Positions 11,560-53,000 of a stretch of DNA of 64,000 nucleotides are shown here, piece by piece. The DNA is taken from contig JBAQNN010000002.1 of NCBI GenBank assembly GCA_049303835.1, positions 94,492 to 158,491 on the forward strand, read 5' to 3'. Made by a program: the position numbers and the translations under genes. The first letter of the stretch is position 1; every line of letters starts with the position of its first letter. The notes beneath the pieces are model-generated. The model saw only the letters and a program-made list of their open reading frames with translations. It ran no database searches and had not been told where the DNA came from. Origin of the DNA: Minisyncoccia bacterium. Lineage in GTDB: Bacteria; Patescibacteriota; Minisyncoccia; Phycocordibacterales; UBA9973.

Positions 11560-14016
11560 CTACTTTACTTCTCCCAAATTTTTCCCTGAACCAGAGTGCA
11601 CCAGAAGAGGGACATCTGTTTTAAAATGAAGATATGACCGCAAGAGTACCCCCTCCATGGCTTCTTTGATTATTTTATCGGCTGTATCCAATACACCGTC
11701 TTCGGTCTCATATACTAATTCGTCGTGAATTTGTAAAATCAAATGAACCTTATCCAACATACCGGCGTTTTTTAGATCCTCTTCCGCATACCTTATGGCT
11801 AATTTAATAATATCAGCTGCTGTACCCTGTATCGGTGCGTTTGTGGCCGTTCGCTCAGCCATATTTTTTAAAAAAGGAATTCTGGAGTTAATGTTTGGGA
11901 AATAACGCCTACGACCAAATAGAGTTTCCGTATAAGAATGTTTTTCGGCAAAAACTTTTACTCCATTTAAATAGTCCCTCACTCCCCTAAACTGATGAAA
12001 ATAATTATCGTAAAATTTTTGAGCTTCTTCGCGAGTACCTCCCAGATTTTTACGCAAGGCCGAAACCCCCATGCCATAAATAATACCGAAGTTTATAACT
12101 TTTGCCTTCCGACGCATCTCGCTGTCCACTTTCTCTATCGGAACTCCGAAAACAAATGAAGCGACCCCGGCATGAATATCTTTTTTTTCTTTAAAAACTT
12201 GGGTCATCTTTTCGTCCAAAGAAAGCATCGCTGCGACCCGCAATTCAATCTGGCTATAATCAAAAGCAATAAGTTTGTGCCCTTTTTCTGCGATAAAACC
12301 ATCCCTGATTTTTTTCCCCAATTCTGTTTTTATTGGTAAATTTTGTAGATTTGGATCCTGAGATGAAAATCTGCCGGTGGTAGAGCCATTTTGAATAAAC
12401 TTAGCGTGTAGGCGACCATCATCACCCGCCATTTTAGGGATAACATCAATATAAGTGGAAAGTAATTTCTGTAATTCCCGGTAAGCCATTATTTCTTTTA
12501 TTATTTCATTCTCTTCTTCCAATTCTTCCAATACCGAAATCTTGGTAGAAAAACCTCCACTGGCATTTTTCTTTGCCTTGTTTTTACCTGGAGATTTTAT
12601 TCCTAATTTATTAAAAAGTATTTCTCCCAGTTGTTTGGGAGAATTGATATTGAATTCTGTTCCGGCCTGCTGGTATATTTTTTTTGTTAAAATATCCAAT
12701 TCTCTGTGATATTCTTCTGATAACTTTTCAAAATATTTTTTATCTATCAAGACCCCATGGTCCTCCATTTTTTTTACGATGGGTATAATCGGTTTTTCTA
12801 TTTCTTCATAAACTTTTTCAAGATTTTGTTCTTTTAATTTTTTGAAAATATGCTCATAGGCTGTTTCAAAAGATTCGGTATGCGCATAAAGTAAAATATC
12901 TTCCAGATTTGGATTAGAAATATCAGAATTGATAATCCATAAAGCAATACTAGCTTCTTGTAGTTTTTTTGAGTCCACAGAATCCTGGCGAGAGTGCTCG
13001 GAGGAATCTTCGCTACTGGCAGAAAAACCTTGCTCCTCCAGGACAGATTGCGAATGACGGAGAGCATCTTCGCCAGGATTCTGACTTTCAAAAAAGTTTC
13101 TTAAACGTCCAAGCAAACTTCTGAATTCAAATTGGGCGAAAACTTCTTCAATTTTTTTGAAATCAGCATTTTCCCAAAAAGTCTTCTCTGGCAAAGAGAA
13201 ATTTATTGGCGCATCTGTACGGATGGTCGCCAGTGTTTTTGAAAATAAAGCTTCTTCTTCGTTATTTTTTAATAGCTCAATCATCCTAGGACTAATGCCC
13301 ACTTTTTTAAATTGTAATTCGTAATTTGTACTTCGTAATTGCTTATAAATTTCTTCTATGGTGCCAAAATTTACAATCAAGTTTTCAGCCGTCTTTTCAC
13401 CTATACCTTTGATACCAATAATATTGTCAGATGGATCTCCTCGTAATCCCTTGTAGTCTGGTAAAAGCTTTGGTTTAAAACCAAAACGTTTCACTACCGC
13501 ATCCTCATCATATAAAATAGTATCGTTGATTCCCTTCTTTAGGGTATATATTTGAACTTTCTTATCATCCACCAACTGCATGGTGTCCATATCTCCGGAA
13601 GCAATAACAATATTCAGACTTCTGTCTTTTTTGTATTTCTCAACGATAGTTCCCAACACATCATCCGCCTCAAACCCGGGAGCATCGTAAATAGGAATAC
13701 TGAAAGCCTCAAAAATCTTCCGAGAGTTTTGTAATTGCACAATGAGTGCTTCGTCGGCTTTTACCCGACCGGCCTTATACGCATCATAAGCTTCGTGTCT
13801 AAAGGTCTTTTGTGGCAAATCATAGCAAGCGACGATATAGTCTGGCTTTAGCTCGGTAATTATTTTCATCAACATGCTGGAAAGTCCGTATAGTGCCCCG
13901 GTAGGTTCACCTTTTCCAGACAAAAATTCCGGCAAGGCGTGGTAAGCACGATGAATGATGGCATGAGCATCCAACAGGACCAATTTTTTATTTTTCTGTT
14001 CTTCTGTTTTAGGCAT
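11560..14016 (-). CDS. polA: DNA polymerase I
   Basis: 818 aa; N-terminal 5'-3' exonuclease (LVLLDAHAIIHRAYHA), polymerase motifs A/B/C (DYSQIELR, KAKVINFGIIYGM, QIHDEL). Confidence 0.9.
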   Translation of the reverse strand: MPKTEEQKNKKLVLLDAHAIIHRAYHALPEFLSGKGEPTGALYGLSSMLMKIITELKPDYIVACYDLPQKTFRHEAYDAYKAGRVKADEALIVQLQNSRKIFEAFSIPIYDAPGFEADDVLGTIVEKYKKDRSLNIVIASGDMDTMQLVDDKKVQIYTLKKGINDTILYDEDAVVKRFGFKPKLLPDYKGLRGDPSDNIIGIKGIGEKTAENLIVNFGTIEEIYKQLRSTNYELQFKKVGISPRMIELLKNNEEEALFSKTLATIRTDAPINFSLPEKTFWENADFKKIEEVFAQFEFRSLLGRLRNFFESQNPGEDALRHSQSVLEEQGFSASSEDSSEHSRQDSVDSKKLQEASIALWIINSDISNPNLEDILLYAHTESFETAYEHIFKKLKEQNLEKVYEEIEKPIIPIVKKMEDHGVLIDKKYFEKLSEEYHRELDILTKKIYQQAGTEFNINSPKQLGEILFNKLGIKSPGKNKAKKNASGGFSTKISVLEELEEENEIIKEIMAYRELQKLLSTYIDVIPKMAGDDGRLHAKFIQNGSTTGRFSSQDPNLQNLPIKTELGKKIRDGFIAEKGHKLIAFDYSQIELRVAAMLSLDEKMTQVFKEKKDIHAGVASFVFGVPIEKVDSEMRRKAKVINFGIIYGMGVSALRKNLGGTREEAQKFYDNYFHQFRGVRDYLNGVKVFAEKHSYTETLFGRRRYFPNINSRIPFLKNMAERTATNAPIQGTAADIIKLAIRYAEEDLKNAGMLDKVHLILQIHDELVYETEDGVLDTADKIIKEAMEGVLLRSYLHFKTDVPLLVHSGSGKNLGEVK

Positions 14017-31045: not shown

Positions 31046-32893
31046 CTATTGTTTACCCTCAGTTTCCGCTCTCTCCTGCTCCTCCTTGGCTTTTCTGTTT
31101 GAAAGTATTTGGGAAGGGTCGGAAGTGATTATCTGGTCTTCAGTATAAGAAGAAATGACTTTTATGGCTACATGCTTTAGGCCGGCAAAGAATATTCCCT
31201 CCCCGAGGCCTGACTCCAAAAGCAGATATTTTTCTTCATCCGTCAGGTTGAAGGTTTTTTGTAAAATATCTATAGTGGTCGGTGATTGTTTAAGGAGAAG
31301 TTGAATAGAAGAGTTTGTAATGATGGGGACACCATAAGGAGATTTCATAAAGTCGGCGGCGTCTTGGGTGATGGTGGAAAGACCGAGATAATATTTTCTA
31401 CCTCTTTTGGCGATAGAGTATAAGAATGAAGCGGTGTCTTCAGATTTCATCATCCACCAAGCCTCATCTACTACCAAGAGGCGCTTTTTCAAATTTTTTC
31501 GTACGGTATTCCAGATATAATGCATGATGATATACATGGCGACGGGTTTTAACTCGTCTTCCATGTCGCGGACGGAAAATACTACGAATTTTTTATTGAT
31601 ATCCACATTGGACGGTCTGTTTAAGAATGTCGCCCAAGAACCCCTCGTATATTTGGCTAGTCTGGTGACGATTGAATCACTTCCATCCATCCCTCCGAGC
31701 ACCATTTCAAAATCTGACAGAAGAGGAGGTTCAATGTTTGAGAAATCAGATTCAGGAGTGATATCTTTCATCGCATAAGTTTCGGAAATAGCTCGGTCTA
31801 CCATTGAATCTTCTTCAGGGGTGAGTCCGCCTAGCATCAATCTGAAAAGCCCTACCAAGTTTATGATATTTGAACGGAGGACATCTTCGGCTGTTTCGCC
31901 TTCGTGAGGAATAGGTAAATCAAAAGGATTGATGTGGTGATCGGAAGAAAGAGAAATATTGAAATATCTTCCACCGACCGCCTCTGACAAGAACTCGTAT
32001 TCCCTTTCCGGATCTATCACTATGACATCAACATCAAACATTAAAGATCTCAAAATTTCTAGCTTAGTGGCATACGATTTTCCGGAGCCGGACTTGGCAA
32101 AGGTCACGGAGTTGTAATTCTCTAGTGAAAATCTATCAAAGATGACTAGGCTGGAATTGTGCCTGTTGATGCCGTAAAGTATTCCTTTGTTGGAAGTCAG
32201 GTCAAAAGAAATAAATGGGAATACACTACTAAGTGGTTCAGAATTCAACTTCTGATGAATACCAAGTATGTCTGTATTTATGGGTATGACGCTCTTAAAA
32301 CCGTCTTCTTGTTGGAAGAGAGCCGGTTTGATATAGATGAGTTTTGATTCAAGGATTGATTTTATCTCATTTTCTATTTTGAAAAGTTCCAACTCGTTGT
32401 CGGCATAAATGGTGATGTAAATACCCACATCAAACATTTTTTCTTGCGCTTGGATCAGATTATTGCGCAGGCCCTCTAGGTCTTGGTAGGCAGTATCAAG
32501 CATAGGGTCGCGCACCATACCCTTACTCTCTCGTACACTTATCTGACTCTGCACCTCGGCGACTTTTTTCTGAAATTGTCTCAAGACCAGAGAAGTGTCT
32601 ATCGGATGAATAAAAATTGAAATATCAAAAACTTTATCCAGATTGATTATAGGAGAGAACCAATTGTCTGTCAGAAATCTAGGATAGGAAATGATGAAAA
32701 AAGTACGAGCGATTTTATCTCCCAAGCTTATGGATTTAGACGATATTTTCAGAGCTGAAGGAGCGATGACATCTTGGAGCTCCAGGGTGGCGGATTGGTA
32801 GATTTCTTCCGGCATCACTGCCAAGACGGAAGCTCTCACTTCCTTTTCCTCCCCTCCTTTTTGTCCACCTAATAATTTTTTTAAAAAGTCCAT
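31046..32893 (-). CDS. virB4: VirB4/TraC-family type IV secretion ATPase (C-terminal 615-aa portion)
   Basis: Walker A TFAKSGSGKSY, Walker B LLVVDEAWWMM, VirB4-type N-flank ...LGDKIARTFFIISYP... Confidence 0.8.
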   Translation of the reverse strand: MDFLKKLLGGQKGGEEKEVRASVLAVMPEEIYQSATLELQDVIAPSALKISSKSISLGDKIARTFFIISYPRFLTDNWFSPIINLDKVFDISIFIHPIDTSLVLRQFQKKVAEVQSQISVRESKGMVRDPMLDTAYQDLEGLRNNLIQAQEKMFDVGIYITIYADNELELFKIENEIKSILESKLIYIKPALFQQEDGFKSVIPINTDILGIHQKLNSEPLSSVFPFISFDLTSNKGILYGINRHNSSLVIFDRFSLENYNSVTFAKSGSGKSYATKLEILRSLMFDVDVIVIDPEREYEFLSEAVGGRYFNISLSSDHHINPFDLPIPHEGETAEDVLRSNIINLVGLFRLMLGGLTPEEDSMVDRAISETYAMKDITPESDFSNIEPPLLSDFEMVLGGMDGSDSIVTRLAKYTRGSWATFLNRPSNVDINKKFVVFSVRDMEDELKPVAMYIIMHYIWNTVRKNLKKRLLVVDEAWWMMKSEDTASFLYSIAKRGRKYYLGLSTITQDAADFMKSPYGVPIITNSSIQLLLKQSPTTIDILQKTFNLTDEEKYLLLESGLGEGIFFAGLKHVAIKVISSYTEDQIITSDPSQILSNRKAKEEQERAETEGKQ

Positions 32894-32975
32894 AATTGTA
32901 TTTAGGCTTTAGCTTTTAGGCTCTAGGCTCTAGCTTTTGAGTTTGCTAATGCCTAAGGCCTAGTTGCCTAGCGCC
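32894..32975. repeat. heptamer-repeat palindromic element A ([T/C][T/C]TAGGC arrays inverted against GCCTA[A/G] arrays)
   Basis: tttaggctttagcttttaggctctaggctctagc...gcctaaggcctagttgcctagcgcc; separates the two VirB4 ORFs. Confidence 0.7.
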
Positions 32976-33614
32976 CTACTCTATTTTAATCTTACCCTCC
33001 AATTCTCCGGGGTTGAAAACTTTATAAAATACTTCCACTACTTCTTCGGTATTCAGCTGGGCCGAATTTATTCCACAACGAGACAATCCTTGCTGGATGA
33101 CAGCTACCCTCTCTTCTAGTTGAGATCTCTTCTCTTCAAAATCTATCTGTTTTGCGGCTCGCACTTCTTCTGAATTCTTTTTGGAAAATAGCTTTCCCAA
33201 TATCCCGGAATCTGATTTTAAAGTTGTACGTGAATATGGTATTACAATAAAGAAGTTTTTTGTCATGATACTGACAGATTCAGTAAAGCTTCTTATAAAC
33301 TCTATATATTCCCTAGTTTGCAACTTGATCAACGGCTCATTTTGCACTTTTACTCTGTTTTCTAAAAGGAGTAAATAAGGTCTGATGTCCAGCCTTCTGG
33401 ATTGGACTGATATCTGTACCGGAAAATCCAAGGTGTTTAAAAAATTTTGAAATTGAAGAATGGTCGCATGTTGTTCATCGGAAGATTTCAAGGATAGGTT
33501 GACCGAGTTTGCGAGTACGATGGCTCGGAGCTCACCTTCTTTTAGCACGATGATGCCATCGCGTATCTCTTTGATTGGTATAAATTCTTGTGTTGCTTTT
33601 GCTTTTAATGCCAT
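32976..33614 (-). CDS. probable VirB4 N-terminal domain encoded as a separate 212-aa ORF
   Basis: N-terminus TQEFIPIKEIRDGIIVLKEGELRAIV...SSDEQ resembles the start of Gram-positive PrgJ/TcpF-type VirB4. 212+615 aa approximates full-length VirB4. Confidence 0.45.
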   Translation of the reverse strand: MALKAKATQEFIPIKEIRDGIIVLKEGELRAIVLANSVNLSLKSSDEQHATILQFQNFLNTLDFPVQISVQSRRLDIRPYLLLLENRVKVQNEPLIKLQTREYIEFIRSFTESVSIMTKNFFIVIPYSRTTLKSDSGILGKLFSKKNSEEVRAAKQIDFEEKRSQLEERVAVIQQGLSRCGINSAQLNTEEVVEVFYKVFNPGELEGKIKIE

Positions 33615-33701
33615 AAATTTTTTCTAGGGCTTTAGGCTCTAGGCGTTAGGCTTTAGCTTTTGTTTCGCTAGAGCCTAGTGCCTAAGGCCTAGCTGCCTGC
33701 A
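33615..33701. repeat. heptamer-repeat palindromic element B (long imperfect hairpin, ~26 bp stem with G-T wobble positions)
   Basis: ctagggctttaggctctaggcgttaggctttagc-ttttgtttc-gctagagcctagtgcctaaggcctagctgcctgca; right arm overlaps last codons of the upstream gene. Confidence 0.7.
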
Positions 33702-34141
33702 TTTTTCTTTTTACTCAAATCAAGCACGTCCAAGCTCCAGGCCAAATCTCGCAACCTACTTCCATCCAATTTTGAACTGACATTTGGCAGTACTTCATTT
33801 TTATTTTCATCCATGTTTGTAGTTTGCGATTTATTATTTGCTACCCTACCGGTCTTCTTCTTCCAAATATAAAGTTTGTTTTGAGAAAAATATTTAAACC
33901 CTGCTTCAATCATGTTTATAAAAGGCTTATTGTTTGGTTTATAGAAAGTAAGAGCTAAAGAAAACCCGGCGATAATCAAAATAGGGATGGCGCTAAAGAC
34001 GAGCCCTAATAATTTATAAAGCACAAAACACAAACCTGCTCCGCCGGCCAAATAAGCAAACTCCCTAAAAGTAAAAGGGCCGAATATTTTATCTTCTATT
34101 TCTAAAAATTGTGGAACCTTGAATTGCATAAATACAGGCAC
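33689..34141 (-). CDS. VirB3/PrgI-like small T4SS membrane protein
   Basis: 150 aa; N-terminal EDKIFGPFTFREFAYLAGGAG followed by two TM helices, adjacent to VirB4. GTG start with an ATG 4 codons in. Confidence 0.45.
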   Translation of the reverse strand: MPVFMQFKVPQFLEIEDKIFGPFTFREFAYLAGGAGLCFVLYKLLGLVFSAIPILIIAGFSLALTFYKPNNKPFINMIEAGFKYFSQNKLYIWKKKTGRVANNKSQTTNMDENKNEVLPNVSSKLDGSRLRDLAWSLDVLDLSKKKNAGS

Positions 34142-34166
34142 TAGGCTTTAGGCGCTAGGCTCTAGC
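34141..34166. repeat. heptamer-repeat element C (CTAGGCT TTAGGCG CTAGGCT CTAGC), single-orientation copy
   Basis: Overlaps the stop region of the four-helix-bundle gene (encodes its C-terminal ...QLEPSA) and the start of the VirB3-like gene. Confidence 0.65.
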
Positions 34167-34507
34167 TGAGAAATTAGTTTATTCAACATTTTCATAATTT
34201 CTTCTAATAAAGAACCCACTTTATTATAATCTAATTTTGCAGTTTTGGGTAATTTTTTAGATATTATTAGCTGAGTTTCTAGCTCCGCACCAGAAGCAAA
34301 GGCAATAAGTAAGAATCTTTTGAATTCTGGAATTCCTCCTCGCATTTTCCCTTCTGCAATATTAGAAGGTATGGATACTGCCGCCCTACGAATTTGTGAG
34401 GTTAAACCATAAATTTCTTCCTTCGAAAATTTGTCTGTGAGTTCATAAACTGCTATTACAAGCTCTATCGATTTTTGCCACACGACTAAATCTCTATATG
34501 TTTTCAT
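34148..34507 (-). CDS. four-helix-bundle protein (23S rRNA intervening-sequence protein / Avd-like family, PF05635-type)
   Basis: 119 aa; YRDLVVWQKSIELVIAVYELT...FSKEEIYGLTSQIRRAAVSIPSNIAEG is the signature N-terminal block of this family. Confidence 0.7.
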   Translation of the reverse strand: MKTYRDLVVWQKSIELVIAVYELTDKFSKEEIYGLTSQIRRAAVSIPSNIAEGKMRGGIPEFKRFLLIAFASGAELETQLIISKKLPKTAKLDYNKVGSLLEEIMKMLNKLISQLEPSA

Positions 34508-34517
34508 GTGTTTTTTA

Positions 34518-34542
34518 CTAGCGCCTAATGCCTAGAGCCTAG
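34518..34542. repeat. heptamer-repeat element D (CTAGCGCCTAATGCCTAGAGCCTAG), inverted relative to element C
   Basis: Reverse complement CTAGGCTCTAGGCATTAGGCGCTAG pairs with element C across the 119-aa gene. Confidence 0.65.
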
Positions 34543-34548
34543 AAAATA

Positions 34549-35100
34549 TTACTCCGGTATCTCCCTATACGGATCAATTTTAGGAACATCTGCTCTATTT
34601 CCACTGGTCTTTTCTTCTTTAGTAATATTTTCTATTGAGTGGTCCGTCTCTACAACAGGATTTTTTACAAGGCCGGATAGTTTTTGGGCCAAAATGGGAT
34701 GTGGAGAATCTATCTCCAGTTTTTCCGGCACAATCTCAATCCCAGCGGATTTTAGTATCTCTGTGTCGTTCTCCTCTTCTTTTATCTTTGATGAATCTAT
34801 TAATTTTTCTCGGATTTCCTTCAATATTTTTTCATTAACGTCATTTACTATGGTGTGGATTTTTTCCTCCGGCAGTTTTAGACTGTTTCTGACCGACTCT
34901 TCAAATTTATCCGGATGAGTAAACCCAAACATCACCATGTGTGTCTCAAGTGACAATTGACCCATCTGTTCTACGTTTAGATTTTCTTTTTGACCTATTT
35001 CTATAATGTTATCGTCCACATTGGCCGCCATGATTGACCATTTTAGGTCTTCCGGCAAGCTCTCAAATTTTTTTTGTATTTCTTCTAATGATATTTCCAT
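34549..35100 (-). CDS. hypothetical acidic protein (183 aa)
   Basis: No recognisable family; part of the T4SS-like operon. Confidence 0.4.
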   Translation of the reverse strand: MEISLEEIQKKFESLPEDLKWSIMAANVDDNIIEIGQKENLNVEQMGQLSLETHMVMFGFTHPDKFEESVRNSLKLPEEKIHTIVNDVNEKILKEIREKLIDSSKIKEEENDTEILKSAGIEIVPEKLEIDSPHPILAQKLSGLVKNPVVETDHSIENITKEEKTSGNRADVPKIDPYREIPE

Positions 35101-35127: not shown

Positions 35128-38127
35128 CTAGTGTCCTCCGTGTCCCGCATCGTGTCCAGCATCATGTCCCCCACCAGAAGGCGCTTCCGGAGGATGTTCG
35201 TGTTTTGGTTCGGCAGATGCCTTTGGTGTGGCGTGTCCTCCGCCTCCCTTTCCTTCTTTCTTGTGGCCACCTTCTTTGTCGTGCTCTTCCTTATGGAACA
35301 CATCTTTATCTTTTCCTAGATCATATTTTTCTTTTTCAAGTCTCCTCATTTGATCTGGTGCGGTTTTTAGCCTATTTAATTGACCCAGTTCTGTTGTGGC
35401 TTTAAACGCAGCATTCTTTATTGCAGTCATTCTAGGATCGTTATCAGGAACGTTCTGCTTGACAAGCTCTTGAAGTTTTAAATCTTCCCTCTTCATAGTA
35501 AACGTGAGTTGGGCTATTCTCTTTTCTACCCCTTTCAGATTGACTTCATCTTTACCGTTTTTATTTTTTTCAACCAGTTTAGTGATTTCTCCCGAAATGT
35601 CGTCTTTTACCTCCATATTTTTTCCTTCTTCCATTATTGTAGTTAAATTTTCTAACGCCACAGTATTCTCTGTCAACCTGTCTTCTATCTTTTGTAGTTT
35701 TTTATGCCCTTTTTCAATATCAGTGGCGAATGATCCCTGGGCCGCTTCTCCCGTGCCTTTTACTCCCGTAGCTTCCTTGAATTTTCTGGTCACTCCAAAC
35801 GCTGCTGCTCCGGCTGTTGTGACCTTTGCCGCCGTAGCTATACCCGCTATACCCGCGATACCACCGATTCCAGCAAGTGCTGCTGCCACCCCAGCTTTCA
35901 TTACAACCTTCTGGGTTCTTCCTTTGTTTATATCGTCTATTGTGGGTTCTTTGTGTGCTTCTTTAAACATTCTCTCAAATCTTTCTTTGTCGAATCCACT
36001 TCCTTCTCTTGTTTGTGCTTCTTTTTCTGCATCCTTTTTTTCTTCAGCCCAGTTCTTATATTCTTTTGAATCTTTGTAATTGTTTTGGTCAACCATTCCA
36101 CCACTTGCTTTCAACAAAGAACGCGCGAGAGAAGCCGTTAATCCATTTTGTCCGAAGTTATTTATAAATTCTTTCATTCTGTCGTGATTGAGTTCATCCG
36201 CCGATTTGTATCCCTTTGGTCGCTCACCGTTTTTCTTCTTAAATTCTTCCTCACTAATTCCATTCTTCTTTGCTATCGCAAGATTACTGTCGTATTCATC
36301 TTGTTTTTTCTTTGACCATGCTTTTACTTCGTCACCACTCATACTTGTTTTATAGAGCTTTGATTCTTCTTCTAATTTCTTCTTTTGCTTTTCTTTTCGT
36401 CCTTGGTATCCTCCCTCATTTGCAGAACCCAAATTTATGCCGGTTCCGCTTACAAATTTCTTTCCAAGACCAGTGGCCCGAATATCGAAGGATGCCTTTG
36501 ATCCATAATCTGCTGTTTTTAGCATCTTTCTTGCTGCCCAACCAGTGAACCCCCTTTCTTTATTGTTTGCGGCGGTTTTTAGACCCTCACTGCTTGCAAC
36601 TTTACTCGATATCGCGCCTATTGCTTGTGTTGCCATAAGCGATGTACCTCCTGTAGCAGCACCCAAGGCGAGTCCCCCAATTAGTTTTGCACCAGTCATC
36701 AATTTTTCTCCCAAGGCGCCGGAACCCTTTTTGGCATATTCTGTAGCTTTGAGTAAGAGAATTAGAATTACTAAGGCAGGAATTATGATGAGCAAGATAG
36801 TTTCTATGAAGCTCGCGTTTGATTTAGAAATAATTTGGTCAAATATCTTTGCTTGAATCAGCATAAATATAAAATACATAAAGAACATGAAAATCGGCGC
36901 CATAAAAGCGGTTTTAAGCAAACGTTTGAACCAAGCATCCCAACCCAAATATTCAACACTACTTAAAATTGGAATGGTTGAAGACATAAAAGCAAAAGGA
37001 GAGAATATAATTAGAACAAAAAGTTCAATCATACGGCCCACAAAGCTGATGCCGGCAACAAAAAAACAATATGCGGCAAAAAACATGAGCACTCCAGCGA
37101 TGATTGTGATTCCAATCAACATACCCCCAGAAACTTCAGTTGAAGCTTTAACTCCTCCTATTTCTTGGGTTTTAAGTTTTGCAAAAAAATCTGGGGTTAA
37201 TAAACTAGTTGGATTGAATGCGTTTACCATACCACCAGCGACATCCTTTTCTCCATTTGCCGTGTTTTGATATTCCCGTACTTTACCATCTGCGTTTACT
37301 GTGTTGACTTCCATTTTATTGTAAAAAACCAAAGCCAAAACATTAGAAGTATCAATAATTACTTGAGTAAAGAACATAGAAAAGTTTATCAAGAGAGCAA
37401 TAACGATGACTTTCACTATCATTTTTTTTGCATCGTGTCCCGCTAAATCTAAAATTATTTTTATAGCGATAAAAAGGAGAATGAGTATAAAGAAAATATT
37501 TGAAAGATCTCGAACTACACCCCAAGCAGTAGGGATGAATGTAGAATTAGCAAACAATTTGCCACTAAGTGTGATGAATATTAAAACATTAAAAAAATAA
37601 GCTGATAACCACAACAAGAAAGAAGGAATAACATAAAAAAGACCATAAGATGCCTGCACAAAACATCCGGGATAAAAGGAAGAGTCACTTCCTCCTAGCC
37701 CGGTTACTCCAAATCCGCAAATATTTTTTCCAATTTCATTCTCAAATGCAGTTTTTGGGCTATTTGTATTTTGTACATCTGTTCCATCTGCCGCTGCATC
37801 AGATGCTTTTGGTCTCCACTGCCCCCCTCCAGCTTCACAAACACTTTTTGTCTTTTCAGTTACTACACTATTTGTGGTACAAATTCCGGTTACTTCGTCT
37901 TTATTGTCTGGAACCCATCTTTTAGTAAAACCCTCAAGTAGTTCAAGATCCGTACATTTTTGTTGTGTTTCAAACTTTTCTCTTCGTATTATATCGCCAT
38001 TCCTATTTGAAACTTCACAGGTTCCTGTTCCTGTTTGTGCCTCTACTTTCTCAGCCATCCCAAATACCCCGCCCAGTACGATGAGTATCAATAAATATGG
38101 TATTATTTTTTTTACTCTATTTTTCAT
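35128..38127 (-). CDS. VirB6/TrbL-like polytopic membrane protein with Cys-rich N-terminal ectodomain and long C-terminal coiled-coil/low-complexity tail ending in Gly/His repeats
   Basis: Signal/TM, then 6-7 TM helices in the middle, charged coiled-coil C-half, tail GGGGHATPK...GHDAGHDAGHGGH. Architecture of Gram-positive VirB6 analogues. Confidence 0.45.
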   Translation of the reverse strand: MKNRVKKIIPYLLILIVLGGVFGMAEKVEAQTGTGTCEVSNRNGDIIRREKFETQQKCTDLELLEGFTKRWVPDNKDEVTGICTTNSVVTEKTKSVCEAGGGQWRPKASDAAADGTDVQNTNSPKTAFENEIGKNICGFGVTGLGGSDSSFYPGCFVQASYGLFYVIPSFLLWLSAYFFNVLIFITLSGKLFANSTFIPTAWGVVRDLSNIFFILILLFIAIKIILDLAGHDAKKMIVKVIVIALLINFSMFFTQVIIDTSNVLALVFYNKMEVNTVNADGKVREYQNTANGEKDVAGGMVNAFNPTSLLTPDFFAKLKTQEIGGVKASTEVSGGMLIGITIIAGVLMFFAAYCFFVAGISFVGRMIELFVLIIFSPFAFMSSTIPILSSVEYLGWDAWFKRLLKTAFMAPIFMFFMYFIFMLIQAKIFDQIISKSNASFIETILLIIIPALVILILLLKATEYAKKGSGALGEKLMTGAKLIGGLALGAATGGTSLMATQAIGAISSKVASSEGLKTAANNKERGFTGWAARKMLKTADYGSKASFDIRATGLGKKFVSGTGINLGSANEGGYQGRKEKQKKKLEEESKLYKTSMSGDEVKAWSKKKQDEYDSNLAIAKKNGISEEEFKKKNGERPKGYKSADELNHDRMKEFINNFGQNGLTASLARSLLKASGGMVDQNNYKDSKEYKNWAEEKKDAEKEAQTREGSGFDKERFERMFKEAHKEPTIDDINKGRTQKVVMKAGVAAALAGIGGIAGIAGIATAAKVTTAGAAAFGVTRKFKEATGVKGTGEAAQGSFATDIEKGHKKLQKIEDRLTENTVALENLTTIMEEGKNMEVKDDISGEITKLVEKNKNGKDEVNLKGVEKRIAQLTFTMKREDLKLQELVKQNVPDNDPRMTAIKNAAFKATTELGQLNRLKTAPDQMRRLEKEKYDLGKDKDVFHKEEHDKEGGHKKEGKGGGGHATPKASAEPKHEHPPEAPSGGGHDAGHDAGHGGH

Positions 38128-46341: not shown

Positions 46342-48669
46342 CTACTCTTTAATTTTTAATTGGTCTAATTTTCCAATCTCCGCTGCTTTTTGTAATGCCC
46401 GCGCCATATACTCTCCGTTTGTTTCAGCCCTGAGGTGGAGAGAGGCCAAACCTCTTGGTTTGATGCCCGTGATTGTGGCGAGTTTATTAAGATAAATTAA
46501 TTTAGGATCGGAATCTTCACCTATCTTACCAAAATGAACCCAGTTTTTAGCCTTTAAATTACTGAAGCTTTCCCATTCGTCTCTGTCTTTAAATATATGT
46601 TCTACGTTGTGTCCGTGAACTTTCAAAGCCCGAACCAAAGTTTCTCCATCTAGATGAAAAGGGTTGTTTGCAAACTCTGGATGATGATTCAAAAAGTCAT
46701 TCTCGTCTGGAGAAAGTCCTGGGAAGTAGTACTGTGGGCCACCCATATTCATACCAGGGAATCTAGAATCATAATAATAATTTGTTCCACCTGGTCCGCG
46801 TCCTGGTTCTACCGCTCCTCCGACGCCTATCCTTGTGCCTGTCCTGATTGTGTTGTTTGGTGTGCTCATTTTTTCTAGTACTTTTGCCCTGGTGGCTTCA
46901 ACGTCAGTATGCGTATCTACACGAGATACTTCTACTTTTTCTGGAAAATTTTCCGTTTCAAATTTGTGTACTGGAGGGTAGGCTTTGTCTCCCAAGTGAA
47001 AAGATTCTGGCGTTTCAGAGTATGGGTTTCCTTTAATATTAAAAGGTGAACTTGTGGTCTCGGGATGAGAAGCTGAAGCTACTGTCTCAACTGTGGGTGA
47101 CTTCGGATGTTTATATTCGTATTTTTCTGTGTCTTCCTCAAATTGTGACCCAGAACCATGTTCTTCTACCAGTCCACTTCCGACTTTTAGTTCATCAACT
47201 TTTAATTCTCCATTTTCTAATTTAAGCTGATATGCCACTTCATTTGCCGGCCTTACCCATATCTCTTCACCCGTAACCTTATCTACGTAACCATGTTCTA
47301 AGGCGACTCTGTGCGCTGCTCCACCAGAAAATTCGTACAAAGCTTTTGTGTCATTCACATCTCCTTTAAAACCTAGGCTCTTTGCGAGCTCTGTATTTTC
47401 CACTATTTGTCTTCTAAACGCGTGTTCTATTCCTTCCCCTTTTTGTATAATTGCTGTCTCGTCTGGTTTGATAGTTTCTGTTGCGCCAGTCGTGGCGGAT
47501 TCAGTCTTTATGCTTTCCGGTGTTTCGGTGTCAATTTCTGTTTTTAGATGTCCGGGCTTTGTTTCAGGAGTATCCAAGTGACCAGCGGAGGGATGTAATA
47601 TTTGACCCATTCCATAACCTGTTCCTATTGATGCCGCTCCGCCGACTACCATACTAGCCATAGCTTTTCCTATTAATCTGTTTCTTTTGCTTTTTTGTTC
47701 CTTCTCTAATATGTCAGCGTAAGTTTTTTTAACTTCAGATAAATTTCCTTCTCCAAAGAACTCTGCCAGCTTTTGTTTTGCGAGTTCTCTTTCTTCTTCT
47801 GATTTGTCTTTAAAAATTAAATCATAAAGTTTTGCTGTTCCTTGTCCGGCACCTAGCCCGACGAACGTACGTGTTGTTTTTATACCTAAATAAGCAAGAC
47901 TTCCTCCAGCTGCGGCTACTGAGCTAGGTAAAACTGTAAAAGCAAATCCCGCTGATAATGCGAAAGACATAGCAATTTTTGTGGGTCTTTTTTGCACCAT
48001 ATACCAATCCAAAAGTTTTTTTGCTAGATTTTTTTCTTTTGGTGGCAGATTTTCTGCTTTTAAAGCATTTAGTTTTGTTTGCTCATCAATTATAACTTTA
48101 GTGAAAATTTCATTTTTTGTCTTTTTTGCTGAGAACATTGCGTTTCCGTATTCTACTGTAGCTTTTTCGTATTCTTTTTCTAACTCTTTTAACTCCGGAG
48201 GAATTTCAGAGTCTTCTATTTTCGCTCCGAAAATAAATCTTTTAGCACGAGTAAATTTTTCAGCTCCGGCCAAAAACTTCTTGTATTCTTCCGCATATTT
48301 TGCTCTAGCATCATCTAGTCTTTTTTCTACATCTAATATTGGGGTGGGTGCTACTTCTGTTGGGGTAATTTTTAAACCTTCTTTTTTCTCCCGGATTGTA
48401 TCTTTTAAGACGCTTATTTTATTATCAACAGTTTCTTTTGCGGAGGAGAAAACTTCAGTTAGATCAGAAAAAGACTCAAATTTTGATGATTGGACGTTCA
48501 TTTCTTCCACTATTTTTTTTACCTCTTCCGTACCGGCACCTCTGGTCAAAGCCTCATTCATTTGATCTAAAACATATAGGTAGTGTCTCGTTACGTCATC
48601 AAACTCAATCAGCCTTTTAATAAGTAAGTCCTTATCTTCCCCGACCCCCGCACTTGTTTCTTGTTTCAT
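46342..48669 (-). CDS. hypothetical 775-aa protein with central TM hairpin(s)
   Basis: Coiled-coil N-half, two Gly/Ala-rich TM segments (MSFALSAGFAFTV..., ASMVVGGAASIGTGYGMG), long acidic C-half. No family recognised. Confidence 0.4.
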   Translation of the reverse strand: MKQETSAGVGEDKDLLIKRLIEFDDVTRHYLYVLDQMNEALTRGAGTEEVKKIVEEMNVQSSKFESFSDLTEVFSSAKETVDNKISVLKDTIREKKEGLKITPTEVAPTPILDVEKRLDDARAKYAEEYKKFLAGAEKFTRAKRFIFGAKIEDSEIPPELKELEKEYEKATVEYGNAMFSAKKTKNEIFTKVIIDEQTKLNALKAENLPPKEKNLAKKLLDWYMVQKRPTKIAMSFALSAGFAFTVLPSSVAAAGGSLAYLGIKTTRTFVGLGAGQGTAKLYDLIFKDKSEEERELAKQKLAEFFGEGNLSEVKKTYADILEKEQKSKRNRLIGKAMASMVVGGAASIGTGYGMGQILHPSAGHLDTPETKPGHLKTEIDTETPESIKTESATTGATETIKPDETAIIQKGEGIEHAFRRQIVENTELAKSLGFKGDVNDTKALYEFSGGAAHRVALEHGYVDKVTGEEIWVRPANEVAYQLKLENGELKVDELKVGSGLVEEHGSGSQFEEDTEKYEYKHPKSPTVETVASASHPETTSSPFNIKGNPYSETPESFHLGDKAYPPVHKFETENFPEKVEVSRVDTHTDVEATRAKVLEKMSTPNNTIRTGTRIGVGGAVEPGRGPGGTNYYYDSRFPGMNMGGPQYYFPGLSPDENDFLNHHPEFANNPFHLDGETLVRALKVHGHNVEHIFKDRDEWESFSNLKAKNWVHFGKIGEDSDPKLIYLNKLATITGIKPRGLASLHLRAETNGEYMARALQKAAEIGKLDQLKIKE

Positions 48670-52433: not shown

Positions 52434-52862
52434 TCATAAAATGATGTCGCTGACCACCTTTACTCTGGCTTTTTTATTTTTTAAATCCAGATATACAACC
52501 AGGAGATCCACTTGCCACTCTTTACCTTCGGAGATTTTTTCGGACAAAAGATATGTTTGAATTGTCCGTGACATTCGTTTTAGTTTCCAGGGATGCATAT
52601 TATCTTCTGGTCTGTAGTTGTTGTCTGTTGTTACATGTGAAACATTGTCTAGCGTTACACGGGAAACACTCTTTACTTCTATAAAATACAGCCTGTTATT
52701 TTTTTCAGCTATTATGTCTATCTCCCCCCATTTTTTAGTATAATTTCTTTCCAATATTGAAAAACCGTGTTTCACGAGAAACTTTTCAGCTATGTTTTCC
52801 CCAATTTCTCCTATCTTTTGGGTTTCTGATGTAAATTTTTTAGGCATTTTAATAAGTTTCAT
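52434..52862 (-). CDS. yraN: YraN-family (UPF0102) endonuclease-like protein
   Basis: GEIGENIAEKFLVKHGFSILERNYTKKWGEIDIIA...YFIEVKS matches UPF0102. GTG at 52871 or ATG at 52862 as start. Confidence 0.7.
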   Translation of the reverse strand: MKLIKMPKKFTSETQKIGEIGENIAEKFLVKHGFSILERNYTKKWGEIDIIAEKNNRLYFIEVKSVSRVTLDNVSHVTTDNNYRPEDNMHPWKLKRMSRTIQTYLLSEKISEGKEWQVDLLVVYLDLKNKKARVKVVSDIIL

Positions 52863-53000
52863 GTGTAACACGTTTCACGTGAAACACTTTACTAAATTTT
52901 AGTGTCTTTTATCATAAAACCCTTACTTTTCAACGTATTTTTGATAAAAATGATCCCAAAAGACAGTTTTGAAATGTGTCCTTTATAAACATTACTAACA

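What the first reader, a model, noticed from the sequence alone, without database searches (positions are those of the whole stretch)
34141..34542. Avd / 23S-rRNA-intervening-sequence-type four-helix-bundle gene sitting in the loop of an inverted-repeat pair inside a secretion operon
The 119-aa ORF (34148..34507) carries the signature N-terminal block of the four-helix-bundle family. That family is best known from ORFs inside 23S rRNA intervening sequences and from DGR accessory (Avd) proteins.

Here the gene is bracketed by inverted copies of the local heptamer-repeat element (C and D). Elements A and B look like the same hairpin without a cargo gene. That arrangement mimics an rRNA intervening sequence, which is a long stem with the ORF in the loop, excised by RNase III.

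This suggests a cassette that moved into a pre-existing processing hairpin, or a conserved association between this protein family and such hairpins. No reverse transcriptase or template/variable repeat pair was seen in this window, so a diversity-generating retroelement is not supported.
Basis: partly seen in the sequence, partly recalled or inferred. Interest (0 to 1): 0.75.

Follow-up and report, generated by a model that had tools for sequence, protein, structure and literature searches.

The report
Hairpin-flanked four-helix-bundle gene cassette

Summary
The ORF at 34148..34507 (minus strand) is a bona fide PF05635/TIGR02436 four-helix-bundle protein.

About 40 of 59 related operons have a 0-40 nt junction at this site with no hairpin. 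Eleven carry four-helix-bundle cassettes of at least three unrelated sequence types, each with its own heptamer. Two carry a GIY-YIG cassette.

In 64-69 homologues from many phyla the ORF is flanked by inverted heptamer arrays:
- flank duplex median -40.6 versus -22.0 kcal/mol for other ORFs;
- lag-7 identity 0.42 versus 0.29;
- TAG-phased arrays upstream and CTA-phased arrays downstream;
- co-oriented insertion between operon partners such as rpsB|tsf and split transketolase.

The protein is under purifying selection (dN/dS 0.05-0.10).

Best reading: an rRNA-IVS-type selfish cassette living in mRNA operons. Its stem loops it out of the transcript, and ORF-less derivatives spread nearby. The RNA-level steps and the mobility mechanism are inferred, not shown.

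The parts
34518..34543 (-). On the sense strand it reads TCTAGGCTCTAGGCATTAGGCGCTAG, which places TAG every 7 nt and so in all three reading frames. It starts 5 nt after the stop codon of the upstream gene (34549-34551).
   Evidence: The same position and polarity are seen in relatives. TAG-phased arrays lie upstream of 37 of 64 family members against 7 of 343 control ORFs.
34508..34517 (-). A-rich spacer (sense TAAAAAACAC) between the 5' arm and the ATG. It contains no Shine-Dalgarno-like or promoter-like site.
   Evidence: Relatives have equivalent A-rich spacers.
34148..34507 (-). Four-helix-bundle protein gene (119 aa; PF05635 / TIGR02436). The last six codons plus the stop (QLEPSA*) are encoded by the 3' arm.
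   Evidence: dN/dS is 0.05-0.10 against orthologues.
34136..34166 (-). On the sense strand it reads GCTAGAGCCTAGCGCCTAAAGCCTAGTGCCT. It ends 6 nt before the PrgI ATG (34129).
   Evidence: CTA-phased arrays lie downstream of 36 of 64 family members against 10 of 343 controls.
33625..33695 (-). ORF-less ('solo') heptamer hairpin A/B. It fills the PrgI | TraC-like junction, and the PrgI stop codon (33689-33691) lies in its arm. It belongs to solo family S1.
   Evidence: Orthologous copies occur in L012, L110, L113 and L126. The hairpin is absent from L001, L014, L092 and others.
32903..32975 (-). Second solo heptamer hairpin (H0). It fills the 82-nt junction between the TraC-like N-terminal gene and the VirB4 ATPase gene. 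It belongs to solo family S2.
   Evidence: Copies occur in L015, L095 and L169, and at both junctions in L033. In L071 a full four-helix-bundle cassette sits at this same junction.
34549..35100 (-). Upstream host gene (183 aa, no family match). Its conserved C-terminus ...DPYRE.PE* marks the left edge of the insertion site.
33689..34129 (-). Downstream host gene, PrgI family (T4SS-like operon). Its conserved start ATGCAATTCAA marks the right edge of the insertion site.
31046..33614 (-). Host genes: the TraC-like N-terminal part (32976..33614) and the VirB4/TraG-type P-loop ATPase (31046..32893) of the T4SS-like operon.

Best explanation
The feature is a small selfish gene cassette of the kind known from 23S rRNA intervening sequences, here resident in a protein-coding operon.

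Layout of the unit (shown):
- a 5' array of TAG-phased heptamers;
- a spacer of about 10 nt;
- the four-helix-bundle ORF (PF05635);
- a complementary 3' array that overlaps the end of the ORF.

The cassette lies co-directionally in the few bases between the stop codon of the upstream gene and the start codon of PrgI. It has no promoter or terminator of its own.

Shown:
- The cassette is absent from most related operons, including three of the four closest.
- The same junction holds unrelated cassette types in other relatives.
- The same cassette lineage sits in unrelated operons elsewhere.
- The architecture and its polarity are family-wide.
- The protein is under purifying selection.
- ORF-less hairpins of the same repeat occupy neighbouring junctions and are duplicated between junctions in relatives.

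Inferred mechanism:
- The cassette is transcribed by read-through as part of the operon.
- The two arms pair into a stem of about 23-25 bp that loops the ORF out of the transcript. This brings the upstream stop and the downstream start back to the roughly 11-nt spacing seen in empty sites.
- The stem offers an RNase III substrate, as demonstrated for the Coxiella IVS.
- Period 7 puts a stop codon in every frame of the 5' arm. Incoming ribosomes therefore terminate whatever the insertion phase; in L110 and L011 the host gene actually uses the first heptamer's TAG as its stop.
- The ORF ends inside the 3' arm, a few bases before the next start, so ribosomes are handed on.
- Together these properties would make the insertion nearly harmless to the host.
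- The solo hairpins are non-autonomous derivatives, comparable to MITEs.

How the element moves, and what the protein does for it, remain unknown.
For: Identity:
- The HMM matches are above the curated cut-offs. The model superposes on 2GSC at TM 0.85.

Presence/absence:
- A metagenome sample chosen only by the neighbouring TraC-like gene gave 59 loci with both flanking genes. About 40 have spacers of 40 nt or less, 11 carry a four-helix-bundle ORF, and 2 carry a GIY-YIG ORF.
- Three of the four closest relatives (L091-L093; TraC-like 89-90%, VirB4 94-98%) lack the gene; the fourth (L094) carries a different cassette type.
- Empty sites read ...DPYRE.PE* + 3-15 nt + ATGCAATTCAA. Occupied sites have the cassette exactly in that spacer.

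Independent cassette types at the same junction:
- TAGGCNN type (window, L110 at 91%, L118 at 86%).
- TAGCTWA type (L137, 59%).
- ATAAAGT type (L117/L168, 35-38%).
- AATTACG type (L097/L123/L139).
- In L071 a cassette sits at another junction of the same operon.

Mobility between contexts:
- L019 and L020 are 81% identical in protein with unrelated flanks. L065 and L069 are 89% identical with unrelated flanks. L027 and L028 come from one MAG and lie in different contexts.
- Cassettes lie between operon partners: split transketolase subunits, rubrerythrin|desulfoferrodoxin, rpsB|tsf, NuoD-like|4Fe-4S, and two ABC exporter genes.

Family-wide architecture:
- Flank duplex median is -40.6 kcal/mol for 69 family genes against -22.0 for 466 other ORFs (p=5e-18). 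Lag-7 identity is 0.424 against 0.291.
- Polarity: TAG at exact 7-nt spacing upstream in 37/64 against 7/343 controls; CTA downstream in 36/64 against 10/343; the reverse polarity in only 3/64 and 6/64.
- Both neighbours are co-oriented in 50 of 53 loci. The median spacers are 42 and 33 nt.
- None of the 80 homologous loci showed more than one of eight rRNA signature motifs: one lone hit, 1.7 kb from the ORF.

Selection:
- dN/dS is 0.05-0.10. The cassette's dS is 0.7-2.1 while the flanking genes' dS is above 2.9 or saturated.

Solo hairpins:
- The same solo family occurs at two junctions in L033 and L011, and at orthologous sites in loci without a cassette.
- Solo arrays of the cassette's own heptamer type lie near cassettes in other phyla.

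No promoter-like or terminator-like site lies in the arms.

Precedent: the Coxiella 23S IVS has the S23p ORF in the loop, a stem of inverted repeats with tandem GACAGAT heptamers upstream of the ATG, and mapped RNase III cleavage at the first repeat (PMC4990558).
Against: - No transcript data exist, so stem formation, RNase III cleavage and translational hand-over are all inferred. No rnc gene lies in the window.
- Sense and antisense stems are equally stable (mean difference -1.2 kcal/mol, p=0.25; G.U pairs 185 against 155). Nothing therefore shows that the RNA rather than the DNA is the selected structure.
- Within the TAGGC type the variable heptamer positions do not co-vary between the two arms of one element (own pairs -41.9, cross pairs -41.4 kcal/mol, p=0.29).
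- Some heptamer types (GCAGCNN, GGGGAAA, AATTACG) contain no stop codon, so the "stop in every frame" rationale is not universal.
- About a fifth of homologues, mostly Bacteroidota and Anaerolineae, have weak or no arms. One (L070) has direct rather than inverted arrays.
- No target-site duplication or transposase was found.
- The low dS of the cassette could reflect synonymous constraint rather than recent transfer.
- The cassette is stably inherited at this site in at least 20 related assemblies, so a benefit to the host cannot be excluded.
Confidence: 0.7

Rival explanations
1. The four-helix-bundle protein is a genuine accessory subunit or regulator of the T4SS-like machine. It was recruited into the operon, and the repeats tune its expression.
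For: The gene has the same position (p183 | 4HB | PrgI | TraC-like | VirB4) in 20 assemblies with 78-84% identical proteins, plus L110 (91%) and L118 (86%). The protein is as conserved as the ATPase and is under purifying selection. Other four-helix-bundle genes also occur in T4SS-like loci (L035, L059, L071).
Against: - The gene is absent from about 80% of related operons, including three of the four closest relatives.
- At the same junction it is replaced by proteins only 35-59% identical, or by a GIY-YIG ORF.
- Close homologues sit between transketolase subunit genes, between rpsB and tsf, in nuo-like genes and elsewhere.
- PADLOC gave no match, and the only PHROGs match was a weak one to DGR Avd (E=1.4e-4), so no functional link appeared.
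Confidence: 0.07
2. The heptamer hairpins are host-owned intergenic processing or stabilising elements of this operon. The gene is cargo that landed in the loop of one of them.
For: Three junctions of one operon carry the same repeat, and only one holds a gene. Solo hairpins exist in loci that have no cassette nearby (L095, L109, L113, L126).
Against: - Empty p183|PrgI junctions are 0-40 nt and have no hairpin.
- Each cassette type brings its own heptamer.
- The arm-ORF-arm unit is conserved across phyla with fixed polarity, and the ORF ends inside the 3' arm.
- Solo hairpins are themselves variable in presence and are duplicated between junctions.
- In 64 kb the repeat occurs only within these 1.6 kb, apart from one weak 2-mismatch match at 47373.
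Confidence: 0.08
3. The arms act at the DNA level. They are terminal inverted repeats or hairpin-forming ends recognised by a transposase or recombinase encoded elsewhere (as with REP/RAYT or IS200/IS605-type hairpin recognition). The RNA stem is only a by-product.
For: The distribution is patchy and lineages occur in multiple contexts. MITE-like solos duplicate between junctions. Stem stability shows no strand bias, as expected for DNA.
Against: - No transposase lies nearby, and no target-site duplication was seen.
- Nearly all cassettes are co-oriented with transcription (50 of 53). The TAG/CTA polarity relative to the ORF points to constraints from transcription and translation that a pure DNA signal would not impose.
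- This rival is not exclusive of the best explanation, which leaves the mobility mechanism open.
Confidence: 0.12
4. It is a remnant of a diversity-generating retroelement, with an orphan Avd gene.
For: The fold resembles Avd (TM about 0.75 to 8UB7 and 4DWL). There are weak hits to Avd models (PHROG E=1.4e-4; NF033474 E=0.008).
Against: The Avd model scores far below its cut-off (16 against 80 bits), with only 10-12% identity to Avd structures against 44% to XCC0516. The window contains no TR/VR-like direct repeat. Across the family the cassettes sit between ordinary operon genes.
Confidence: 0.02

Closest known systems
ORF-containing 23S rRNA intervening sequences (Coxiella burnetii IVS with S23p; Leptospira IVS)
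   Same: - The protein family is the same (PF05635).
- The ORF lies in the loop of a long stem made of inverted repeats.
- Tandem heptamers lie just upstream of the ATG (GACAGAT x3-4 in Coxiella).
- The ORF is co-oriented with the host transcript.
- The Shine-Dalgarno site is weak or absent.
- The element is regarded as selfish and possibly mobile (PMC4990558).
   Different: - The host transcript here is a protein-coding operon, not rRNA. None of the 80 homologous loci showed more than one of eight rRNA signature motifs.
- The element sits between a stop codon and a start codon.
- Its 5' arm supplies stop codons in all frames.
- The ORF is under strong purifying selection, whereas the Coxiella ORF is decaying.
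- RNase III cleavage has not been demonstrated here.
DGR accessory protein Avd (bAvd, PF22296 / NF033474)
   Same: It is a four-helix bundle of about 120 aa. Avd, XCC0516 and BT_0352 all crystallise as five-chain assemblies. Avd binds RNA and the reverse transcriptase in the DGR ribonucleoprotein (entry titles 8UB7-8UBE).
   Different: The Avd model is not met, and identity to Avd is only 10-12%. There is no reverse transcriptase and no TR/VR pair.
MITEs and REP-type intergenic palindromes
   Same: The solo hairpins are short, intergenic, inverted-repeat elements. They are variable between relatives and are duplicated between sites. They share their ends with a longer ORF-bearing element.
   Different: The arms are tandem heptamer arrays rather than unique terminal inverted repeats. 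No target-site duplication was seen. The ORF-bearing partner encodes a 119-aa helical bundle, not a recognisable transposase or RAYT.
Over-represented heptameric simple repeats of bacteria (cyanobacterial STRR; Xanthomonas GGGAATC with 70-75 convergent pairs per genome; Beggiatoa TAACTGA)
   Same: They are intergenic tandem heptamers, usually 3-5 units, often as convergent (inverted) pairs close to the end of the upstream ORF (PMC4692102; PMC4679880). Xanthomonas, one of the genera concerned, encodes PF05635 proteins: XCC0516 is the closest solved structure.
   Different: Those papers do not connect the repeats with PF05635 genes; they discuss G-quadruplexes or regulation. Whether those repeats are ORF-less relatives of cassettes like this one was not tested here.
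Free-standing homing-endonuclease-type genes inserted between operon genes (small GIY-YIG ORFs)
   Same: They are small selfish ORFs occupying intergenic junctions. An 84-aa GIY-YIG-like ORF with 15-nt perfect inverted repeats occupies the very same p183|PrgI junction in L146 and L170.
   Different: The four-helix-bundle protein has no nuclease motif. Its flanks are heptamer arrays.

Membership tests
PF05635 / TIGR02436 four-helix-bundle ('23S rRNA IVS protein', S23p) family | Profile score above the curated threshold over the full length | tested here: met
   PF05635 scores 123.3 bits against 33.8, covering model positions 1-106 of 106. TIGR02436 scores 118.2 against 24, and NF008911 scores 139.3 against 137.
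PF05635 / TIGR02436 four-helix-bundle ('23S rRNA IVS protein', S23p) family | Four-helix-bundle fold like XCC0516 (2GSC) and BT_0352 (2RLD) | tested here: met
   The AF2 model has pLDDT 91 and four helices. Foldseek gives TM 0.85 and rmsd 1.5 A to 2GSC, and TM 0.8 to 2RLD. phmmer against 2GSC gives E=4e-22.
PF05635 / TIGR02436 four-helix-bundle ('23S rRNA IVS protein', S23p) family | Conserved motif R-x3-S-x3-N-x2-E(G) (described in PMC3936711) | tested here: met
   The sequence contains ...QIRRAAVSIPSNIAEG.... Residues R41, S45, N49, E52 and G53 are invariant among 26 homologues.
rRNA intervening sequence (IVS) | Located inside a helix of a 23S (or 16S) rRNA gene | tested here: not met
   The window has no rRNA gene. 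The element lies between two protein-coding genes. None of the 80 homologous loci showed more than one of eight rRNA signature motifs: one lone hit, 1.7 kb from the ORF.
rRNA intervening sequence (IVS) | Long stem of inverted repeats with the ORF (if any) in the loop, sense to the host transcript | tested here: met
rRNA intervening sequence (IVS) | Excised from the host transcript by RNase III | not testable with these tools
   No transcript data are available and no rnc gene lies in the window. The stem is 23-25 bp, an adequate length for an RNase III substrate (established knowledge).
Diversity-generating retroelement (Avd component) | Adjacent reverse transcriptase and a template/variable repeat pair; match to the Avd equivalog model | tested here: not met
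   NF033474 scores 16.4 bits against a cut-off of 80. The window has no direct repeat of 40 nt or more, apart from one low-complexity pair. The neighbours are T4SS-like genes.
MITE / IS-type transposable element | Terminal inverted repeats | tested here: met
MITE / IS-type transposable element | Target-site duplication and a recognisable transposase (in cis or for the autonomous partner) | tested here: not met
   Comparison of occupied and empty sites shows no consistent duplication. The only ORF is the 119-aa helical bundle.
MITE / IS-type transposable element | Presence/absence polymorphism and copies in unrelated sites | tested here: met
Core or accessory component of the T4SS-like operon | Present in orthologous operons of close relatives | tested here: not met
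   The gene is absent from about 46 of 59 related operons, including three of the four closest.

The most novel reading that the evidence does not exclude
PF05635 genes with their polar inverted heptamer arrays form a widespread, so far unnamed class of operon-invading mobile elements. The rRNA intervening sequences are only their best-known habitat.

In this reading the four-helix-bundle protein is the element's own trans-acting factor. It would bind the heptamer stem (RNA or DNA) and promote spread or retention, possibly through an RNA intermediate, as its structural relative Avd works with a reverse transcriptase.

The puzzling excess of intergenic heptameric repeats and hairpins in bacterial genomes (STRR, GGGAATC pairs and others) would then be the ORF-less progeny of these elements.
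Probability: 0.3. Interest if true: 0.85.

Novelty: new variant of a known kind. Interest (0 to 1): 0.68.

Why it matters
The "23S rRNA IVS protein" family is large and has had no known function for thirty years. The family's genes turn up in cas operons, rRNA genes and many other places, where they are often read as functional partners of their neighbours.

This locus and its relatives show that the gene comes as a fixed module:
- TAG-phased heptamers;
- the ORF;
- complementary heptamers.

The module inserts co-directionally between operon genes and comes and goes between close relatives. That has four consequences:
- It warns against guilt-by-association annotation for this family.
- It extends the IVS concept from rRNA to mRNA.
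- It gives a concrete, testable design principle for a harmless insertion: self-looping stem, frame-independent stop, and ribosome hand-over.
- It offers a candidate origin for the over-represented heptameric repeats of bacterial genomes.

The library searches run here found no paper that states this general link. The held library lacks most subscription journals, so prior description cannot be excluded.

Tried and rejected
- Exact look-up of the window protein and of its 100%-identical database entry found no recorded contig. Relatives had to be used instead.
- Locus-specific co-variation of the two arms within the TAGGC type was tested. Own and foreign arm pairs are equally stable (p=0.29). 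Support for selection on pairing therefore comes only from the different heptamer types each having complementary arms.
- A strand test (G.U against A.C, sense against antisense energy) was not significant. The RNA strand and the DNA cannot be told apart.
- The loops of the solo hairpins were compared with the cassette's 5' spacer and ORF end, to look for derivation by internal deletion. Both are A-rich and compatible, but this is not diagnostic.
- No consistent target-site duplication was found.
- A scan of the 80 homologous loci for eight rRNA signature motifs gave only one lone hit, in L043, 1.7 kb from the ORF. That hit was not confirmed with Rfam.
- PADLOC gave no hit, and PHROGs gave only a weak Avd hit.
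- The promoter/terminator scan found nothing in the arms.
- A search for an RNase III signature in the window found nothing.
- A first regular expression for solo hairpins was too strict and was replaced.
- Literature searches for a published link between PF05635 and heptamer arrays returned only the Coxiella IVS paper and papers on heptamer repeats that do not mention the protein.
Full report
**1. What is in the window**

All genes around the finding lie on the minus strand and form a T4SS-like operon. In transcription order they are:
- a 999-aa membrane protein;
- a 183-aa protein ("p183", 34549..35100);
- the 119-aa ORF of the finding (34148..34507);
- a PrgI-family gene (33689..34129);
- a TraC-like N-terminal VirB4 fragment (32976..33614);
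- the VirB4/TraG-type ATPase (31046..32893).

The 119-aa ORF is a full-length member of PF05635 (E=6e-36) and TIGR02436 (E=2e-34). The DGR Avd model is far below its threshold. Its closest solved relative is XCC0516 of Xanthomonas (2GSC, E=4e-22). An AlphaFold model (pLDDT 91) has four helices and superposes on 2GSC with TM 0.85. Avd structures follow at 10-12% identity.

**2. The repeats**

The ORF is bracketed by inverted arrays of the heptamer CTAGGCN. They are 84-91% complementary in two registers 7 nt apart and close the minimum-free-energy fold of the transcript.

The pattern is 10-fold over-represented in the window, and all but one weak match lie in 32916-34542. There are two ORF-less hairpins of the same repeat:
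- A/B (33625-33695), between PrgI and the TraC-like gene;
- H0 (32903-32975), between the TraC-like gene and the ATPase gene.

Three details matter for the interpretation:
- The 5' arm starts 5 nt after the p183 stop codon.
- The last six codons and the stop of the four-helix-bundle ORF are encoded by the 3' arm, which ends 6 nt before the PrgI ATG.
- The PrgI stop codon lies inside arm B.

Neither a promoter-like nor a terminator-like site lies in the arms.

**3. Relatives: orthologues, empty sites and other occupants**

The protein is 100% identical to one from a Minisyncoccia (Patescibacteria) MAG and has thousands of homologues. Homologues at 78-84% identity (L001-L019, L033), plus L110 (91%) and L118 (86%), occupy the same position in the same operon. 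They carry the same kind of arms.

To avoid selecting on the gene itself, I sampled metagenomes with the neighbouring TraC-like protein. Fifty-nine loci contain both p183 and PrgI:
- About 40 have a p183|PrgI spacer of 40 nt or less.
- Eleven carry a four-helix-bundle ORF.
- Two carry an 84-aa GIY-YIG-like ORF.

Three of the four closest operons lack the gene (L091-L093; TraC-like 89-90%, ATPase 94-98% identical). The fourth (L094) carries a different cassette type.

Empty sites read ...DPYRE.PE-stop, then 3-15 nt, then ATGCAATTCAA. Occupied sites have the whole arm-ORF-arm unit in that short spacer. In L110 and L011 the host gene now terminates at the TAG of the first heptamer.

The eleven occupants fall into at least three unrelated sequence types, each with its own heptamer:
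- TAGGCNN, as in the window;
- TAGCTWA (59% identical protein);
- ATAAAGT (35-38%);
- AATTACG.

In L071 a cassette sits at the TraC-like|ATPase junction, the site of the solo hairpin H0 in the window.

These data exclude insertion into a pre-existing hairpin. They also exclude a dedicated T4SS role. They show a hot-spot junction that has been occupied repeatedly by small selfish cassettes.

**4. The architecture is a property of the whole protein family**

Eighty loci from named genomes were found by protein similarity alone, at 37-84% identity. They come from Patescibacteria, Nitrospirae, Acidobacteriota, Clostridia, Planctomycetota, Omnitrophota and others. In most of them the ORF is flanked by complementary arrays of tandem heptamers. 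The sequence of the heptamer differs by lineage: TAGGCNN, TAGGTGA, TAGCCAC, TAGTTKG, TTAGGKK, CAGTGRT, GCAGCNN, GGGGAAA and others.

Against other ORFs of the same loci the signal is strong:

| Measure | Four-helix-bundle genes | Other ORFs |
|---|---|---|
| Flank duplex energy, median | -40.6 kcal/mol (n=69) | -22.0 kcal/mol (n=466), p=5e-18 |
| Lag-7 identity in flanks | 0.424 | 0.291 |
| At least three TAG at exact 7-nt spacing upstream | 37/64 | 7/343 |
| At least three CTA at exact 7-nt spacing downstream | 36/64 | 10/343 |
| Opposite polarity (CTA upstream / TAG downstream) | 3/64 and 6/64 | 8/343 and 15/343 |

Both neighbours are co-oriented with the ORF in 50 of 53 cases. The median spacers are 42 nt upstream and 33 nt downstream.

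A scan for eight rRNA signature motifs gave only one lone hit, 1.7 kb from the ORF, so none of these 80 loci looks like an rRNA gene. Instead the cassettes lie between operon partners:
- the two transketolase subunit genes;
- rubrerythrin|desulfoferrodoxin;
- rpsB|tsf;
- NuoD-like|4Fe-4S;
- two ABC exporter genes.

The same cassette lineage occurs in unrelated contexts:
- L019 and L020 are 81% identical in protein.
- L065 and L069 are 89% identical.
- L027 and L028 come from one MAG and lie in different contexts.

There are exceptions. About a fifth of homologues, mostly Bacteroidota and Anaerolineae, have weak or no arms. L070 has direct rather than inverted arrays.

**5. Selection and age**

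Against its orthologues the window gene has dN/dS of 0.05-0.10, so the protein is functional. Its synonymous divergence (dS 0.7-2.1) is lower than that of the flanking TraC-like and ATPase genes, whose dS exceeds 2.9 or is saturated. This fits transfer between operons after they diverged. Synonymous constraint is an alternative explanation.

**6. The solo hairpins**

The solo hairpins fall into sequence families with characteristic loops:
- The PrgI|TraC-like hairpin of the window has orthologues in L012, L110, L113 and L126.
- The H0 type recurs in L015, L095 and L169.
- One family occupies two different junctions within L033, and another does so within L011, with identical loops.

Many relatives have 2-7 nt junctions instead. 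The solos are therefore gained, lost and duplicated. They also occur in loci without a cassette.

L091, one of the closest relatives without the gene, keeps decayed TAGGC arm remnants at the p183|PrgI junction. Arrays of the cassette's own heptamer type lie near cassettes in other phyla too.

I read the solos as ORF-less derivatives of the cassettes. Direct evidence for derivation by internal deletion is weak.

**7. How it most likely works**

Shown:
- The module structure, its polarity and its co-orientation.
- The precise placement between a stop codon and a start codon.
- The presence/absence polymorphism and the purifying selection.

Inferred:
- The cassette is transcribed by read-through.
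- Its arms pair and loop the ORF out. This restores the short stop-to-start distance of the empty site and creates an RNase III substrate.
- Period 7 is not a multiple of 3, so a TAG-bearing array stops ribosomes in all three frames. This explains why the TAG strand is upstream.
- The ORF ends in the 3' arm next to the following start codon, which allows hand-over of ribosomes.

The precedent is the Coxiella 23S IVS. It has the same protein family in the loop, inverted-repeat stems, tandem GACAGAT heptamers before the ATG, and RNase III cleavage mapped at the first repeat (PMC4990558).

Not supported by my tests:
- RNA-strand specificity of the stem.
- Locus-specific co-variation of the arms.

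The mechanism of movement and the role of the protein remain unknown. The fold's kinship to Avd, which binds RNA and a reverse transcriptase, is only a lead.

**8. Comparison with what is known**

The feature works like an ORF-containing rRNA IVS but fails the defining feature of lying in rRNA. It is a PF05635 member, not an Avd or DGR component. It behaves like an IS/MITE pair but has no transposase and no target-site duplication.

The literature held here covers the following:
- IVS elements in rRNA.
- PF05635 genes inside cas operons, interpreted there as functional association (PMC3936711).
- PF05635 genes in CPR rRNA insertions.
- Over-represented heptameric repeats, often as convergent pairs, in Xanthomonas and cyanobacteria, with no link to this protein (PMC4692102; PMC4679880).

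I found no statement of the general module described here. The library is incomplete, so prior description cannot be excluded.

**9. Verdict**

- The finding is real.
- The family assignment and the IVS analogy are right.
- The "pre-existing hairpin" idea is wrong.

I rate it a new variant of a known kind: an IVS-type cassette in mRNA operons, with a defined polar heptamer architecture and MITE-like derivatives. Interest is 0.68.

Noticed in passing
L146:3119-3446 and L170:3165-3458 (remnant in L165 just upstream of the PrgI ATG): An 84-aa GIY-YIG-like ORF (MFYYTYILKSKKDGKIYTGYT...) occupies the same p183|PrgI junction in these relatives. It is flanked by a 15-nt perfect inverted repeat, CCCGTTAGAGATC...GATCTCTAACGGG, and its 3' end overlaps the right repeat. 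L146 also keeps a fragment of an AATTACG heptamer arm. The junction therefore attracts several kinds of small cassette.
   Followed up: partly
window 33689-34129 (PrgI gene) against its orthologues: The PrgI-family gene gives dN/dS above 1 (0.95-1.8) with unusually low dS (0.18-0.37). Nucleotide identity (66-76%) is higher than amino-acid identity (36-50%). This could reflect diversifying selection, an overlapping constraint at the nucleotide level, or an alignment artefact.
   Followed up: no
window 31046-33614: VirB4 is encoded as two genes: a 212-aa TraC-like N-terminal part and a 615-aa P-loop ATPase. The split is conserved in all relatives, including those whose junction is only 4-7 nt, so the hairpin did not cause it.
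   Followed up: partly
window 13308-13340: A run of 4.6 copies of the heptamer AATTCGT lies inside the DNA polymerase I ORF (11560..14016, minus strand), with no inverted partner. It is the same heptamer as the arms of the AATTACG-type cassettes in L097, L123 and L139. This may be coincidence.
   Followed up: partly
L091:3400-3470 (also L095, L108 and L109 at the same junction): Relatives without the gene carry decayed TAGGC-type arm fragments around a conserved A/T-rich loop containing a TATTATAAT (-10-like) motif. This may be a scar of a lost cassette that now provides an internal promoter.
   Followed up: no
L070:3900-4460 (Verrucomicrobiae MAG): Here the heptamer arrays (CCACTNN) on the two sides of the four-helix-bundle ORF are in direct, not inverted, orientation (duplex only -13.5 kcal/mol). 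A further 8-unit array lies 2 kb upstream. This is an exception to the family rule.
   Followed up: no
window 52856-52887: A tandem pair of a 16-nt self-complementary unit (GTTTCACGTGAAACAC) lies in the tRNA-rich region between tRNA-Pro and tRNA-Gly.
   Followed up: no
window 35139-35170: A 12-nt tandem repeat encodes a His/Gly/Asp-rich C-terminal tail (...GHDAGHDAGHGGH) of the 999-aa membrane protein of the operon.
   Followed up: no
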